Source of the DNA: Pseudomonadota bacterium
GTDB lineage: Bacteria > Bdellovibrionota > Bdellovibrionia > Bdellovibrionales > SG-bin7
Length of the DNA stretch: 24,344 bases
Assembly: GCA_034439715.1 (NCBI GenBank)
Contig: JAWXAY010000026.1
Location: 1-24,344, forward strand
Direction: 5' to 3'
Made by a program: the position numbers. Shown one piece after another: positions 6,001-9,000 of the stretch; the stretch's first letter is position 1; each line of letters opens with the position of its first letter.

Positions 6001-9000
6001 GAAAGGACCGCATCATCTAAATGTGGTGAAAAATATAGTATTAGATCCATCCAATTAATTTTATACCGAATCCTTTTTATTCAAAGTAATTATTTCCTAA
6101 GTCTTTTAGTGCTTGATATATTAGCAATTTATTAGGTACAGAGTTTGCACCACCATATTTTGTTAGAATGATTTCTCGGTGGGGGGGGGGGAACAATGAC
6201 TCAACTATTCATCACGCTCTTACTAAGCTTTTCTGGACTTTTTTCTGGCACCTCATTAGCGGCCGGCCCTTTTTCAGACAAAGAGCTGCAAGATGAGCTC
6301 AACCAGTTTCGGAGCAACCCCAAACTTTTTTATAGCTCACTCCCTCCAAAAAAGGGCGCCCAATCTCAGTTAGTAGATAGCGGGCTTAAAGGCCGCAGAG
6401 TAAAACAAAACCAACGCGCTCAAATTATTTTGGCCTCAGATCCTTGGTTACGCCTTTCAAACCCTAATGGTAATGACCTTGCCCAAAATCTACTTGAAGA
6501 TGGCGCATTTATTTCTAATATTCAAAAGTTAGCAGACAGTGAACTTTTAAGCGGTGAAATAGATATCAAGCCCTGGTCAGACGACTATTGGCCATTTTAT
6601 AAGGGTGGACTGGCCTCACGCTACTCCGATGGTGCCTTTCCTCGCTCTCAAGACTGGCAAGAAAATTTTGACTACTATATGGCCCATCCCTTTTTTCCGA
6701 TTTTTGAAAGTGGTAGTGCACCAAGTATAAATTCACTCTCTCCTGCCGAGAAATATGACCTCGTCATTGGCGCCAAAGGCGGGGCGTTGACTTCTAAAAT
6801 GTGGAAAGAGGGCGCGGCCTATTATGCGGCGACTGGTAAAGTAGAATTTTGGATGGGAATTTGTCACGGCTGGGCTCCGGCAGCCTATATGCAAAAACGC
6901 CCACAAAAATCTGTTGAGGTCTTGGCATTTGACGGAAAAACCAAAATTAAATTTTACCCAGCTGATATTAAAGGTCTGACTTCGCTACTTTGGGCTAATG
7001 CTGCCACTCCCGTGAGATTTGTAGGGGGTCGTTGTAACGACGAAGACCCTAAGGTTGACAGTATGGGCCGTCCAACGAGTCCCGATTGTCTCGATACCAA
7101 TCCTGCGACCTGGCATCTTGCCATTACCAACCGAGTGGGAGTATCTAAGAAAAGTTTTATAATAGATGCCACTTATGACTATCAGGTTTGGAACCAACCT
7201 GTTACCTCTTACACTTACACCTACTTTAATCCTCAGACTTTGAATCTAACTTCGTCATTGGATAAAGCCATGATTCCTATTACTGATTTTTCCGAAGATA
7301 AATTCAAAAGCTATCGATCACAAGGAGTCAAATTTGTTGTTGGTATAAAAATGCAAACAACCTATCTCATTGAAAATAACCCCGAACAGCACGACGTCGA
7401 AGATCCCAACACCGATACTCATGCGACTGCGTCCTATACCTATGATTTAGAACTTGATGAAACGGGCAAAATCATAGGTGGAGAGTGGTACCGAAACCCC
7501 CACCCCGATTTTTTGTGGACGCCTACTAAAGACGCGCGCGCCATGGCTAAAAATGACTATTACCTTCTGGGTGAGCCCTTATGGGACGGTAAACAAGCTC
7601 TACCAAAAACCTGGCAAGACCACGGCAGAGAAAGTGCAACTAACGGACAACCGCTTTTAAAAATTATTGATAGTTTAATAACTTTAAGTTTAGAAAATTA
7701 AAAGGAGAATTAAAATGAATGTCATATTAGTTATGTCTGTATTTCTTTTTGGATTTCTGTCTGAATCGATCTATGCCGACAATGTCGGAAATAAAATAGA
7801 AGTCAGTATAGAAAAGGTCTATGTCTCCCCCACTGGTTATGATGACAATGATAACGTACAGCTTATCATCGATGGCATGTTTCCAAATCAGTGTTACCAA
7901 ATCGCCAATACTAACTTTAGTATAGATGAAGATAAAAAATCCATTTCCATTAGGCAGCTTGCCAGGCTCAAGGGAACCACTGACTGTCAAATGAACCCGC
8001 TGCCCGAGTACCTCAGCTACGCCACAAGATTTAGTTCAGAAATTAATTTAGGGTACTTGATGGCCGGTGAGTATACTGTGAATTATAAATCGCCGAGTGC
8101 GCAGAAAATGGAACGCAAGTTTAAAGTGGAGGCGGCAAAGTCAGACAGTACTGATGAAGCCATCTATGCTCCCGTCAGTGACGCCTTTATACCAGAGATG
8201 ATTTACGAAACTGCTAATGCTGAAATCATCCTCACAGGAGTATTGGAATCTTTGTGCCTGCAATGGAAACAAGTCGATATAGAAAGATTTGATGACATCA
8301 TTGTGGTCATGCCGAAAATGCAATTAATATCCACCCCTGCTCAGTGTCGTCAAAATCCAGAACCGTTAGAAAAAATCGTATCTTTGGGTGCAGTTAAAGA
8401 AGGACGATTTTTATTACACGTGCGATCTATGTCTGGCAAAGGCATCAATCGCATGTTCTCGGTGGTAAAAAAACCAGGCGATATGAGCGGCAAGTAAAAT
8501 AAAAGACAGGGACTTATTGCCGAGCCATGTCCTTTAGCTTTACTAATTGGGCTCTGACATCCGGGGGAATGCGCGTTCCGGCACTCCCCGTATAACCAAG
8601 ATAAATACTCTGCTCGAGACGATTATAGCATCTATCTGCAATTTCAGAATGAGGGCGCTCTTGAATACAGCGCGTGTAGTAGTCCTCATGAAGCGTCCAA
8701 TAGCCCAAGTCTTGAAGCGATTCATAACACATACCCATATTAAATAGCATCTCGGGGAATACTTGATCCTTTTTAATGCGAGTAAAATATTCGTGTCCCA
8801 ATGCCGTAGCTCGTAAATAATTTACCAGCGGACTGTCGAACTCAATATTACTCTCACGTCTTTGAGCATCTGCAATTAATCGGTCCATCGTCTTCTTATA
8901 AGCGCCCCTCATGACTAGCTTTCTTGAACCGTCCCTTGATAAATTGTCTAAATCTTTGGCCCAAACTTTGGCTTGACGTTTTAGAAAATGGGGAAGATCC

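What a model noticed while it worked through the whole genome (the two positions that open the first line are those of the whole stretch)
6196..7701. Oomycete-type transglutaminases as a hallmark of predatory Bdellovibrionota
The genome encodes two exported proteins of the 'transglutaminase elicitor' family known from the Phytophthora cell-wall enzyme GP42: g00730 (C26:6196-7701, signal peptide, near full-length match with a GICHGW cysteine motif) and the lipoprotein g02822 (C93:27168-28301, next to a 2833-aa cyclic beta-1,2-glucan synthase); the family is found in half of all Bdellovibrionota genomes but in about one in 200 other bacteria. Boldest reading: these are secreted protein cross-linking enzymes used in predation, e.g. 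to stiffen or seal the prey envelope (bdelloplast) or the predator's own surface, and the oomycete enzyme shares its origin with them. New would be a function for a lineage-defining famil [...]
Evidence so far: pfam.tsv: TGase_elicitor g00730 6.1e-45 (model 15-335 of 361), g02822 2.6e-14 (117-241). relatives.tsv: family at E<=1e-5 in 423 of 850 other Bdellovibrionota genomes, 129 of 383 of the order, 3 of 3 of the family, 1,408 of 189,784 bacteria; enrichment about 95-fold, second only to DUF4423 among this genome's families. Call 184: N-termini MTQLFITLLLSFSGLFSGTSLAAGP.. and MNQITILTLLCAVLLMACGE... Call 183: among the 8 of 33 papers listed, only one holds transglutaminase and Bdellovibrio together (on vasohibins; listing seen only).
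(Added by a program. Inside this text positions count along the whole contig: contig position 1 is position 1 of the stretch shown here. "Call 12" and the like, gene names such as g00115 and contig names such as C1 are that model's own, and its searches are not shown. The text may have been shortened before it was handed on; [...] marks where a part breaks off. The agent that wrote the report below was given it as the finding of a first reader that could run no searches.)

Follow-up and report, generated by a model that had tools for sequence, protein, structure and literature searches.

The report
Secreted GP42-type transglutaminase, not predation-specific
The gene encodes an exported enzyme of the same family and fold as the Phytophthora cell-wall transglutaminase GP42, but the family is just as common in non-predatory filamentous sulfur bacteria, so it is not a marker of predation.

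Summary
Window 6196-7701(+) encodes a 501-aa protein with an N-terminal signal-like peptide. It matches Pfam TGase_elicitor (152.7 bits), and its model superposes on GP42 (3TW5; Z 29.1, rmsd 2.1 A). The Cys223-His224 motif is invariant in 107 of 107 relatives.

Enrichment in the phylum is real: 209 of 401 genomes, against 4 of 400 Gammaproteobacteria. It is not a hallmark of predation:
- The family is in 64 of 107 Thiotrichales, 53 of 201 Myxococcota and 22 of 81 genomes of the cable-bacteria family.
- It is in only 1 of 26 genomes of one well-sampled genus of the window's own order.

The protein belongs to a bacterial long-form subfamily, distinct from a Myxococcota group that is about twice as similar to GP42.

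New here:
- Residues 24-90 form a conserved segment with no counterpart in the GP42 crystal chain. It carries a conserved K/R-x3-R motif in a flexible linker.
- The next gene in many relatives is a clan-CD cysteine peptidase (C11, C14 or CHAT). I read this, by inference, as protease-activated zymogens.
- This genome has no C11 or C14 match. Its downstream gene encodes a secreted protein of two Ig-like domains.

Function is untested. The second copy, g02822, has Cys-Asp in place of Cys-His.

The parts
6181..6191 (+). Run of 11 G, 4 nt upstream of the ATG. G-rich Shine-Dalgarno region of the transglutaminase gene.
   Evidence: Sequence. It is the longest G/C homopolymer in the 3.26-Mb genome, one of 8 tracts of 9 or more. 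Relatives have 5-6 G at the same place. One of four metagenome contig sets has 10 G instead of 11. That could be a real length variant or a homopolymer assembly error.
6196..7701 (+). Gene for the 501-aa GP42-type (PF16683) transglutaminase-like pre-pro-enzyme. The stop codon is included.
6196..6264 (+). Residues 1-23: signal-peptide-like N-terminus (hydrophobic core, then SLA-A).
   Evidence: Read from the sequence. Homologues have equivalent N-termini. No signal-peptide predictor was available.
6265..6465 (+). Residues 24-90: conserved N-terminal segment outside the Pfam domain, with no counterpart in the GP42 crystal chain. Proposed propeptide (inference).
   Evidence: The VIA superposition covers model residues 91-501 on chain residues 166-527. 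Conservation among 107 relatives: L35 99, F38 89, P50 87, K52 87. pLDDT is below 50 at residues 60-66 and 76-91. Structural alignments to 11 zymogen entries of papain-like proteases start at model residues 18-60, those to 9 non-zymogen entries at 93-117. All are weak, Z 4.4-6.3.
6403..6417 (+). K70-Q-N-Q-R74: conserved basic motif in the flexible linker. Candidate processing site (inference).
   Evidence: Position 70 is K or R in 92 of 107 relatives and position 74 is R in 93 of 107. It lies in the low-confidence linker.
6466..7698 (+). Residues 91-501: catalytic domain with the GP42 fold.
   Evidence: VIA-align against 3tw5_B: Z 29.1, rmsd 2.1 A, 299 residues aligned, 28% identity. Foldseek against 3tw5_A: E 1.2e-17, the only match at E <= 0.001.
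6856..6873 (+). GICHGW: catalytic Cys223 and His224, the 'CH' motif of GP42.
   Evidence: It aligns to GISHAW of 3tw5, where the Ser falls at residue 290 by my count from the printed alignment. C223 and H224 are invariant in 107 of 107 relatives. The CH motif is described in PMC10318531 (passages).
7087..7101 (+). C298-L-D300-T-N302: invariant Asp and Asn just before helix 303-316. D300 is a candidate third catalytic residue. C298 probably pairs with C280.
   Evidence: D300 and N302 are invariant in 107 of 107, C280 in 101 and C298 in 96 of 107. The protein has only three Cys: 223, 280 and 298. The assignment rests on the description in PMC10318531.
7186..7203 (+). VWNQPV, identical to the first six residues of the GP42 stretch VWNQPVRGFKVYE. 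That this stretch is the Pep-13 elicitor is recalled, not checked.
   Evidence: Alignment. V331, W332 and N333 are invariant in 107 of 107, P335 in 105 of 107.
7715..8497 (+). Downstream gene, 13 nt after the stop, preceded by AAGGAG. It encodes a 260-aa secreted protein of two Ig-like beta-sandwich domains, each with a conserved Cys pair. The Atlas places it in clusters that carry PF27154 YB1M_beta.
   Evidence: Model pLDDT 88.4. Fold matches are generic, best Z 6.5. Atlas result. Homologues follow the transglutaminase gene in G283, G237, G369, G042 (broken there) and L106.

Best explanation
Shown. The gene encodes an exported member of the GP42 / TGase_elicitor family. This is a papain-fold enzyme whose nucleophile Cys223 is followed directly by His224. 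All residues conserved across the family are present. The protein belongs to a bacterial long-form subfamily of about 500 aa. That subfamily is common in Bdellovibrionota, Thiotrichales, Myxococcota and cable bacteria, and rare elsewhere.

Inferred:
1. After Sec export it acts outside the cytoplasm as a protein acyl-transferase. It would form glutamine-lysine isopeptide cross-links as GP42 does. The most economical target across these lineages is the cell's own envelope, sheath or matrix proteins rather than prey.
2. It is made as a zymogen. Residues 24-90 would be a propeptide removed at or near the conserved K70-x3-R74 motif.
3. In many relatives the protease for this would be the clan-CD cysteine peptidase encoded next door (C11, C14 or CHAT). 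C11 peptidases and bacterial metacaspase-type C14 peptidases prefer Arg or Lys at P1 by recall; that was not checked here, nor for these partner proteins.
4. This genome has no C11 or C14 match, so another protease would have to do the job.
5. The gene is probably co-transcribed with a secreted protein of two Ig-like domains, whose role (substrate, adaptor or neither) is open.
For: Family and fold:
- Pfam 152.7 bits.
- PDB 3tw5 at E 8e-29 by sequence.
- AF2 model pLDDT 86.8.
- VIA Z 29.1, rmsd 2.1 A, 299 residues aligned.
- Foldseek E 1.2e-17, the only significant match.

Active site:
- C223, H224, D300, N302 and N333 are invariant in 107 of 107 sequences from at least four lineages.
- The GP42 CH-motif chemistry is described in PMC10318531 (passages).

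Extracellular action:
- A signal-like N-terminus.
- Relatives are fused to CBM_14, SH3_3, PPC or Ricin_B domains.

Distribution:
- 209 of 401 Bdellovibrionota.
- 64 of 107 Thiotrichales.
- 53 of 201 Myxococcota.
- 22 of 81 of the cable-bacteria family.
- 4 of 400 Gammaproteobacteria.

Zymogen idea:
- The GP42 crystal chain aligns only from residue 91.
- The N-terminal segment is conserved, and R74 is present in 93 of 107 in a low-pLDDT linker.
- Alignments to zymogen structures of papain-like proteases start at model residues 18-60. Those to non-zymogen entries start at 93-117 (weak, Z 4.4-6.3).

Protease neighbour:
- A C11 gene lies directly downstream in 12 of 29 phylum-sample loci, plus a fragment in a 13th.
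- It lies downstream in 24 of 77 named loci. His and Cys of its dyad are invariant in 12 of 12.
- A C14 gene is downstream in 7 of 14 cable-bacteria loci, with one more between tandem copies.
- A CHAT-domain gene is adjacent in L048, L062 and L075.
Against: - No activity, expression or localisation data exist for any bacterial member in the papers I could search.
- Papain-fold enzymes can be proteases, amidases or deamidases instead of transglutaminases. Sequence cannot tell these apart.
- The zymogen model lacks its protease in this genome: 0 matches to C11 and 0 to C14, at 95.7% completeness.
- Most Thiothrix loci have no clan-CD peptidase within 6 kb, yet R74 is conserved there too. The motif may therefore be structural.
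- I could not read model coordinates. The contact of residues 24-90 with the active site and the identity of the third catalytic residue are unverified.
- GP42 has three disulfides by recall. This protein can form only one.
- That the target is the cell's own surface is an argument from distribution alone.
Confidence: 0.6

Rival explanations
1. The enzyme is a predation tool: it is secreted into or onto prey to cross-link and stiffen or seal the prey envelope (bdelloplast), and that is why it marks predatory Bdellovibrionota.
For: - It is enriched in two predatory phyla: 209 of 401 Bdellovibrionota and 53 of 201 Myxococcota.
- It is exported.
- The C11 protease pairing was found in loci labelled Bdellovibrionota or Myxococcota, plus two loci with unclear labels. 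That fits a secreted attack arsenal.
Against: - It is equally or more frequent in non-predatory Thiotrichales (64 of 107) and present in cable bacteria.
- It was found in 1 of 26 genomes of genus g10 in the window's own order, and that one match is weak (E 4.1e-12). Many of these genomes are closed chromosomes of 3.3-4.2 Mb.
- It was not found in families f21 (0 of 14) and f13 (0 of 9).
- This genome lacks the C11 partner.
- There are no expression data.
Confidence: 0.12
2. It is a hydrolase, not a cross-linker. It would be a secreted papain-like cysteine protease, peptidoglycan amidase or glutamine deamidase that keeps the GP42 fold, working beside the neighbouring clan-CD protease in protein degradation.
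For: - After GP42, the next-best fold matches are all papain-like proteases and related hydrolases at Z 4-6.3: interpain, cathepsins, SpeB, IdeS, a T6SS amidase effector and pseudomurein endoisopeptidase.
- It pairs with proteases.
- One relative carries SH3_3, which I recall as a peptidoglycan-binding domain.
- Transglutaminases also deamidate when no amine acceptor is at hand (general knowledge).
Against: - The only close structural relative (Z 29.1, against 6.3 or less for all others) is an enzyme with reported transglutaminase activity (PMC4915311 and PMC9105555, passages).
- The unusual CH motif and the VWNQPV stretch are retained in 107 of 107 relatives. By recall, that stretch is needed for GP42 transglutaminase activity.
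Confidence: 0.2
3. The transglutaminase and the downstream two-Ig-domain protein form a dedicated enzyme-partner pair (substrate, inhibitor or anchoring adaptor), replacing the protease partner seen elsewhere.
For: - The genes are tightly spaced: 13 nt apart here, with AAGGAG before the second ATG, and -4 to 19 nt apart in G283 and G237.
- The same adjacency is seen in G369, in G042 (broken there) and in L106.
- The transglutaminases with this neighbour fall in one part of the tree, at SH-like or SH-aLRT support of 93.
Against: - The Ig-domain family is far wider than the pairing. It is in 250 of 401 phylum genomes, with up to 6 matches per genome.
- Among the 20 best-scoring loci, 5 (the window's own included) lie next to a transglutaminase gene.
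- L033, a close relative of the window's locus, lacks the gene between the same flanking genes.
- The fold is a generic Ig-like sandwich.
Confidence: 0.2

Closest known systems
GP42 transglutaminase of Phytophthora sojae (PDB 3TW5; Pfam PF16683 TGase_elicitor)
   Same: - Same Pfam family (152.7 bits) and same fold (Z 29.1, rmsd 2.1 A, 28% identity over 299 residues).
- Same Cys-His 'CH' motif.
- Same VWNQPV stretch.
- Both are exported.
   Different: - Only 104 bits to GP42, where some Myxococcota proteins reach 200-222 bits.
- It sits in a separate long-form clade (SH-aLRT 98).
- It has its own conserved N-terminal segment, residues 24-90.
- One possible disulfide, not three (GP42's three are recalled).
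- A bacterial operon context.
- Activity is untested.
Vibrio homologues of GP42 (Reiss et al. 2011, J Biol Chem 286:42585). I could not read this paper. It is cited through PMC4915311 (passages).
   Same: They are bacterial members of the same family. The published view is that GP42 homologues occur only in oomycetes and some marine Vibrio.
   Different: The family's main bacterial reservoirs in my samples are Bdellovibrionota, Thiotrichales, Myxococcota and cable bacteria. This is much wider than the review states. I did not examine Vibrio sequences.
Zymogens of microbial transglutaminase (Streptomyces mobaraensis MTG; recalled) and of papain-like proteases (procathepsins, prointerpain A, prostaphopain B)
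   Same: It works like them in my model: an N-terminal segment ahead of a papain-fold catalytic domain, removed by a separate protease. Structural alignments to 11 zymogen entries begin at model residues 18-60, those to 9 non-zymogen entries at 93-117.
   Different: - No sequence relationship of the N-terminal segment to those propeptides was shown.
- Cleavage is not demonstrated.
- MTG has a different active-site arrangement, with His and Asp swapped (PMC10318531).
Clan CD cysteine peptidases: Peptidase_C11 (clostripain), Peptidase_C14 (caspase/metacaspase) and CHAT
   Same: These are the recurrent neighbours of long-form transglutaminase genes in relatives. The catalytic His and Cys are invariant in 12 of 12 C11 partners.
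   Different: They are not part of this window. The genome has no match to C11 or C14. I found no published link between these peptidases and GP42-type enzymes.

Membership tests
PF16683 TGase_elicitor / GP42 family | Score above the Pfam gathering threshold over most of the model | tested here: met
   152.7 bits against a cut-off of 25, model positions 15-335 of 361.
PF16683 TGase_elicitor / GP42 family | GP42 three-dimensional fold | tested here: met
   AF2 model pLDDT 86.8. VIA Z 29.1, rmsd 2.1 A, 299 residues aligned to 3tw5_B. Foldseek E 1.2e-17, TM 0.66 by target.
PF16683 TGase_elicitor / GP42 family | Nucleophile Cys immediately followed by His (the 'CH' motif; PMC10318531) | tested here: met
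   C223-H224 in GICHGW aligns to the mutated Ser-His of 3tw5. It is invariant in 107 of 107 relatives.
PF16683 TGase_elicitor / GP42 family | Third polar residue: Asp on a non-core helix, or Asn on strand beta-2, contacting the His | tested here: inconclusive
   The candidates D300 and N333 are invariant in 107 of 107, and D300 aligns to an Asp of GP42. I had no coordinates to measure contacts.
PF16683 TGase_elicitor / GP42 family | Conserved Pep-13 region (sequence identity recalled as VWNQPVRGFKVYE) | tested here: met
   The first six residues, VWNQPV, are identical. The remaining seven differ: TSYTYTY against RGFKVYE.
PF16683 TGase_elicitor / GP42 family | Ca-dependent protein cross-linking activity | not testable with these tools
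   This needs a biochemical assay. I found no data for any bacterial member.
Second copy g02822 as a catalytically equivalent member | Cys-His motif | tested here: not met
   It reads GLCDAW, with Asp in place of His. Only residues 154-352 align to the family profile (hhalign probability 98.2%). The GGEW motif is missing from that alignment. It has by far the longest branch in the tree.
Protease-activated zymogen (works like MTG or the procathepsins) | N-terminal segment absent from the mature or crystallised homologue | tested here: met
   GP42 chain residues 166-527 align to model residues 91-501. Residues 24-90 have no counterpart.
Protease-activated zymogen (works like MTG or the procathepsins) | Cognate processing protease encoded with the enzyme | tested here: not met
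   It is met in relatives: C11 in 12 of 29 and 24 of 77 loci, with C14 or CHAT in others. In this genome there are 0 C11 and 0 C14 matches.
Protease-activated zymogen (works like MTG or the procathepsins) | Demonstrated cleavage and gain of activity | not testable with these tools
   This needs protein work.

The most novel reading that the evidence does not exclude
A mobile two-gene module: a GP42-type pro-transglutaminase plus a clan-CD cysteine peptidase (C11, C14 or CHAT, recruited independently in different lineages) that activates it at a conserved basic site. The module would have spread horizontally among surface-attached, filamentous or predatory bacteria (Bdellovibrionota, Myxococcota, Thiotrichales, cable bacteria). 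There it would build protease-resistant, isopeptide-cross-linked extracellular structures such as coats, sheaths or fibres. In predators these would shield the cell from its own secreted proteases.
Probability: 0.2. Interest if true: 0.7.

Novelty: new member of a known kind. Interest (0 to 1): 0.45.

Why it matters
A review in the library states that GP42-type transglutaminases occur only in oomycetes and some Vibrio (PMC4915311). The samples here show that the family's bacterial centre of gravity lies elsewhere. It is in about half of Bdellovibrionota and of Thiotrichales, and about a quarter of Myxococcota and of the cable-bacteria family.

None of the papers I could search treats a function for any bacterial member. 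Three different clan-CD peptidase families recur next to the gene. That gives a concrete, testable hypothesis: these are zymogens activated by proteolysis. It also offers a handle on how these bacteria might build cross-linked envelopes or sheaths.

For predation biology the result is mostly a correction. The family should not be read as a predation marker.

Tried and rejected
- Complex prediction of the transglutaminase (residues 24-501) with the downstream Ig-domain protein (24-260): no answer, score 0.00 against a mark of 0.32. It counts neither for nor against binding.
- RNA evidence: no RNA holder is listed for window 6100-8600. All 13 runs are DNA metagenome contigs, mostly from microbial mats. 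It says nothing on expression.
- Promoter and terminator scan of 5900-9900: 7 promoter-like and 2 terminator-like sites, at or below the shuffled expectation. No use.
- NCBIfam: no model matches the transglutaminase, the Ig-domain protein or g02822.
- Local Pfam: no family for the 260-aa protein. Only the Atlas points to PF27154.
- Conserved upstream partner: none beyond local synteny. The largest cluster of upstream neighbours has 4 members, all from cable bacteria.
- Papers: Reiss 2011 (PMC3234954) and Brunner 2002 (PMC139088) are not held. GP42 residue numbers, the C290S mutant, the disulfides, the Pep-13 sequence and its role in activity are therefore recalled. The exception is what PMC10318531, PMC4915311 and PMC9105555 state in the passages I read. 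'YB1M' and 'PF27154' gave 4 unrelated papers. 'Transglutaminase' with 'cable bacteria' gave 0. 'Transglutaminase', 'clostripain', 'Myxococc' (at least 2 of 3) gave 71 papers, and the 20 listed are mostly on coeliac disease.
'g10 = Bdellovibrio proper' is therefore only a guess.
- I considered and dropped the idea that the poly-G tract marks a phase-variable regulon. Of the 8 G/C tracts of 9 or more, only this one has an ORF of 50 aa or more starting within 15 nt by my crude scan.
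Full report
**What is there**

Window 6196-7701(+) is an open frame of 501 codons. 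It matches Pfam PF16683 TGase_elicitor at E 1.5e-44 and 152.7 bits, residues 107-446 on model positions 15-335 of 361. By sequence, the only solved structure it matches is GP42 of Phytophthora sojae (3tw5: E 8e-29, 103.8 bits, residues 124-446).

An AlphaFold2 model built on 30 homologues has mean pLDDT 86.8 and pTM 0.85. Foldseek finds only 3tw5 at E <= 0.001 (E 1.2e-17). An exhaustive structural comparison gives 3tw5_B at Z 29.1, rmsd 2.1 A, 299 residues aligned and 28% identity. The next hit is at Z 6.3, and it and those below it are nearly all papain-like proteases.

The N-terminus (MTQLFITLLLSFSGLFSGTSLAA) reads as a Sec signal peptide. I judged this by eye. Homologues have equivalent N-termini.

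**Active site**

GICHGW (residues 221-226) aligns with GISHAW of the crystal chain. By my count from the printed alignment the Ser falls at residue 290. By recall the crystal is the C290S mutant.

PMC10318531 (passages read) describes GP42 as unusual among papain-like enzymes. Its His follows the Cys directly ('CH' motif) and interacts with an Asn on strand beta-2 or an Asp on a non-core helix.

I aligned 107 relatives from Bdellovibrionota, Myxococcota, Thiotrichales, cable bacteria and others. C223, H224, D257, K259, D300, N302, V331, W332, N333, E419 and G428-W431 are invariant in 107 of 107. D300 precedes helix 303-316, and N333 sits in VWNQPV just before strand 334-345. They are the natural candidates for the third residue. 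I had no access to coordinates, so this is inference.

VWNQPV is identical to the first six residues of the GP42 stretch VWNQPVRGFKVYE. By recall that stretch is the Pep-13 elicitor.

The protein has three cysteines only: 223, 280 and 298. C280 and C298 are conserved in 101 and 96 of 107.

**Distribution**

| Group sampled | Genomes with a match |
|---|---|
| Window's phylum, G000 included | 209 of 401 (208 above Pfam's cut-off; 117 of 204 genera) |
| Named control genomes | 0 of 14 |
| Order of Thiofilum flexile (Thiotrichales) | 64 of 107 |
| Phylum of a Nannocystis genome (Myxococcota) | 53 of 201 |
| Family of Ca. Electrothrix | 22 of 81 |
| Gammaproteobacteria | 4 of 400 |

- Within the phylum the family is uneven: f23 50 of 57, f24 16 of 17, f30 8 of 8, f20 56 of 100, but f21 0 of 14 and f13 0 of 9. 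Genus g10 of the window's own order has 1 of 26, and that single match is weak (E 4.1e-12).
- Three of the four Gammaproteobacteria matches are Thiotrichales, the centre genome among them. One further genome could not be scored.
The best 77 loci are 40-51% identical over nearly the full length. They include Thiothrix, Thiolinea, Thiofilum, Leucothrix, Cocleimonas, Ca. Electrothrix and Electronema, a Methylococcales MAG, Chitinimonas and Zooshikella, besides Polyangia, Nannocystis and Bdellovibrionota.
- HMMER against 1.84 billion cluster representatives finds 2,423 clusters at E <= 0.001 and 751 at E <= 1e-30.

So the family is rare in general and strongly concentrated in a few lineages. Two of those lineages are not predators. 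'Hallmark of predation' does not hold.

**Place in the family**

In an IQ-TREE tree of 69 rows, the roughly 500-aa long forms make one clade of 62 rows. It holds ours, the other Bdellovibrionota long forms, and the Myxococcota, Thiotrichales and cable-bacteria sequences (SH-aLRT 98).

Outside that clade lie:
- three short Bdellovibrionota forms;
- two Myxococcota proteins;
- one gammaproteobacterial protein;
- the paralogue g02822.

The two Myxococcota proteins score 200.3 and 221.7 bits against GP42, about twice our 103.8. Pfam scores in Myxococcota reach 302.7 bits, against 167.3 bits at most in the window's phylum. So the oomycete enzyme is nearer to another bacterial subfamily than to the window's.

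Inside the long-form clade the backbone is poorly resolved. The Myxococcota, Thiotrichales and cable-bacteria rows (together with one Bdellovibrionota-labelled row, L102) sit together, at SH-aLRT 94 (21 rows) in IQ-TREE and 98 (47 rows) in FastTree, among Bdellovibrionota rows. That fits horizontal spread. The tree is unrooted, so no direction of transfer can be claimed.

**The N-terminal segment**

GP42's crystal chain (its residues 166-527) aligns to our residues 91-501. Residues 24-90 lie outside the Pfam domain but are conserved across phyla. Among 107 relatives, L35 is kept in 99, F38 in 89, P50 in 87 and K52 in 87. Position 70 is K or R in 92, and R74 is kept in 93. The basic motif lies in a linker with pLDDT below 50.

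Structural alignments to 11 zymogen entries of papain-like proteases begin at model residues 18-60. Those to 9 non-zymogen entries begin at 93-117. These matches are weak (Z 4.4-6.3), so this is only suggestive.

**Neighbours in relatives**

- C11. A Peptidase_C11 (clostripain-family) gene lies directly downstream on the same strand in 12 of 29 loci of the phylum sample, with a fragment in a 13th.
- C11 in the 77 named loci: 24 carry it. That is 12 of 19 labelled Bdellovibrionota, 10 of 14 Myxococcota, 2 of 13 with unclear labels, 0 of 17 Thiotrichales and 0 of 14 cable bacteria or Desulfobulbaceae. Seven loci have under 600 nt downstream and could not be judged.
- The C11 partners keep their catalytic His and Cys in 12 of 12 aligned sequences.
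- C14. In cable bacteria the downstream gene is a Peptidase_C14 (caspase family) in 7 of 14 loci. Two were scanned by Pfam and five joined them by BLAST cluster. At least one more lies between tandem transglutaminase copies.
- CHAT. In Leucothrix a 1,984-aa protein with a CHAT domain ends 31-45 nt upstream. In Thiofilum a CHAT-domain protein is the convergent neighbour.
- C11, C14 and CHAT are all clan-CD (caspase-fold) peptidases.
- Most Thiothrix loci have none within 6 kb.
- No upstream gene is conserved beyond local synteny.

Three different clan-CD families next to the same enzyme suggests a functional link, not inherited gene order. By recall, C11 peptidases and bacterial metacaspase-type C14 peptidases prefer basic P1 residues, which would fit the conserved K/R-x3-R motif. 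I found nothing on such a pairing in print (listings only).

**This locus**

The genome (95.7% complete) has no match to C11 or C14.

Thirteen nucleotides after the stop codon, behind an AAGGAG, starts a 260-aa ORF (7715-8497). It has a signal-like N-terminus and four conserved cysteines (60, 91, 181, 211). Its model (pLDDT 88.4) is two Ig-like beta-sandwiches. Structural matches are generic, best Z 6.5. The ESM Atlas places it in clusters that carry PF27154 YB1M_beta, commonest in Bdellovibrionota. My Pfam copy lacks that family.

Homologues follow the transglutaminase gene in G283, G237, G369, G042 (with stops there) and an Oligoflexia MAG. The family is much wider than this pairing. It is in 250 of 401 phylum genomes, with up to 6 matches per genome. 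Of the 20 best loci, 5, the window's own included, lie next to a transglutaminase gene.

L033, a close relative of the window's locus, lacks the gene. There the transglutaminase gene abuts the homologue (54% identical) of the window's convergent 394-aa CXXCH protein.

**The second copy**

It aligns to the family only over residues 154-352. It has Cys-Asp where the family has Cys-His, and the GGEW motif is missing from that alignment. It has by far the longest branch in the tree. It should not be counted as an equivalent enzyme.

**Reading**

Shown:
- family membership and fold;
- intact catalytic motif;
- export signal;
- the lineage distribution;
- the neighbouring peptidase genes in relatives.

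Inferred:
- transglutaminase chemistry, from the only characterised relative at 28% identity;
- zymogen activation;
- action on the cell's own surface rather than on prey.

The hydrolase alternative cannot be excluded from sequence. The prey-stiffening idea is not excluded either, but it no longer has the distribution on its side.

**What I could not see**

Reiss 2011 and Brunner 2002 are not in the library. No RNA data exist for this stretch.

Noticed in passing
window 6181-6191: A run of 11 G lies 4 nt before the transglutaminase start codon. It is the longest G/C homopolymer in the genome; only 8 tracts reach 9 or more. Relatives have 5-6 G there. One of four metagenome contig sets has 10 G. 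It may be a slippage-prone ribosome-binding region or a homopolymer assembly error.
   Followed up: partly
window 7715-8497; loci L110-L128: The 260-aa protein of two Ig-like domains belongs to a family with no match in the local Pfam copy. The Atlas points to PF27154 YB1M_beta. It is present in 250 of 401 phylum genomes, with up to 6 matches per genome, so it is more widespread in the phylum than the transglutaminase. Its function is unknown.
   Followed up: partly
L044, L059, L066, L040, L056, L081, L103 (cable bacteria): Cable-bacteria loci carry two transglutaminase genes about 4 kb apart, with a Peptidase_C14 gene after the first. In L060 (Ca. Electronema) a 304-aa protein with collagen triple-helix repeats lies directly upstream of the transglutaminase gene. 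It could be a substrate.
   Followed up: no
L130 (G501:C159), L131 (G521:C4): Some Myxococcota proteins are far closer to oomycete GP42 than any Bdellovibrionota protein. They reach Pfam scores up to 302.7 bits, and 200-222 bits against 3tw5. One also matches a metalloprotease chain over residues 459-516. This bears on the published idea of a Vibrio origin for the oomycete gene.
   Followed up: partly
P0014, P0034, P0025, P0036 (representative clusters): Long-form relatives are fused to CBM_14 (chitin-binding), SH3_3, PPC or Ricin-B lectin domains. That points to targeting of extracellular or cell-wall material.
   Followed up: no
window 8514-9698 (-): A 394-aa protein with a lipoprotein-like N-terminus, a CXXCH motif (HCINCH) and weak TPR matches. 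It has no Pfam or NCBIfam family above threshold. It is 54% identical to the gene that abuts the transglutaminase gene in L033.
   Followed up: partly
L062:1-5955, L075:3-5951 (Leucothrix): An ORF of about 1,984 aa, open at the 5' end of the locus, combines DUF7379, an LCAT-like esterase region, a CHAT domain and a TPR sensor. It ends 31-45 nt before the transglutaminase gene.
   Followed up: no
L065:838-4437 (Methylococcales MAG): A 1,199-aa subtilase (Peptidase_S8) and a 465-aa ORF with no family lie directly upstream of the transglutaminase gene. This is another protease neighbour, of a different clan.
   Followed up: no
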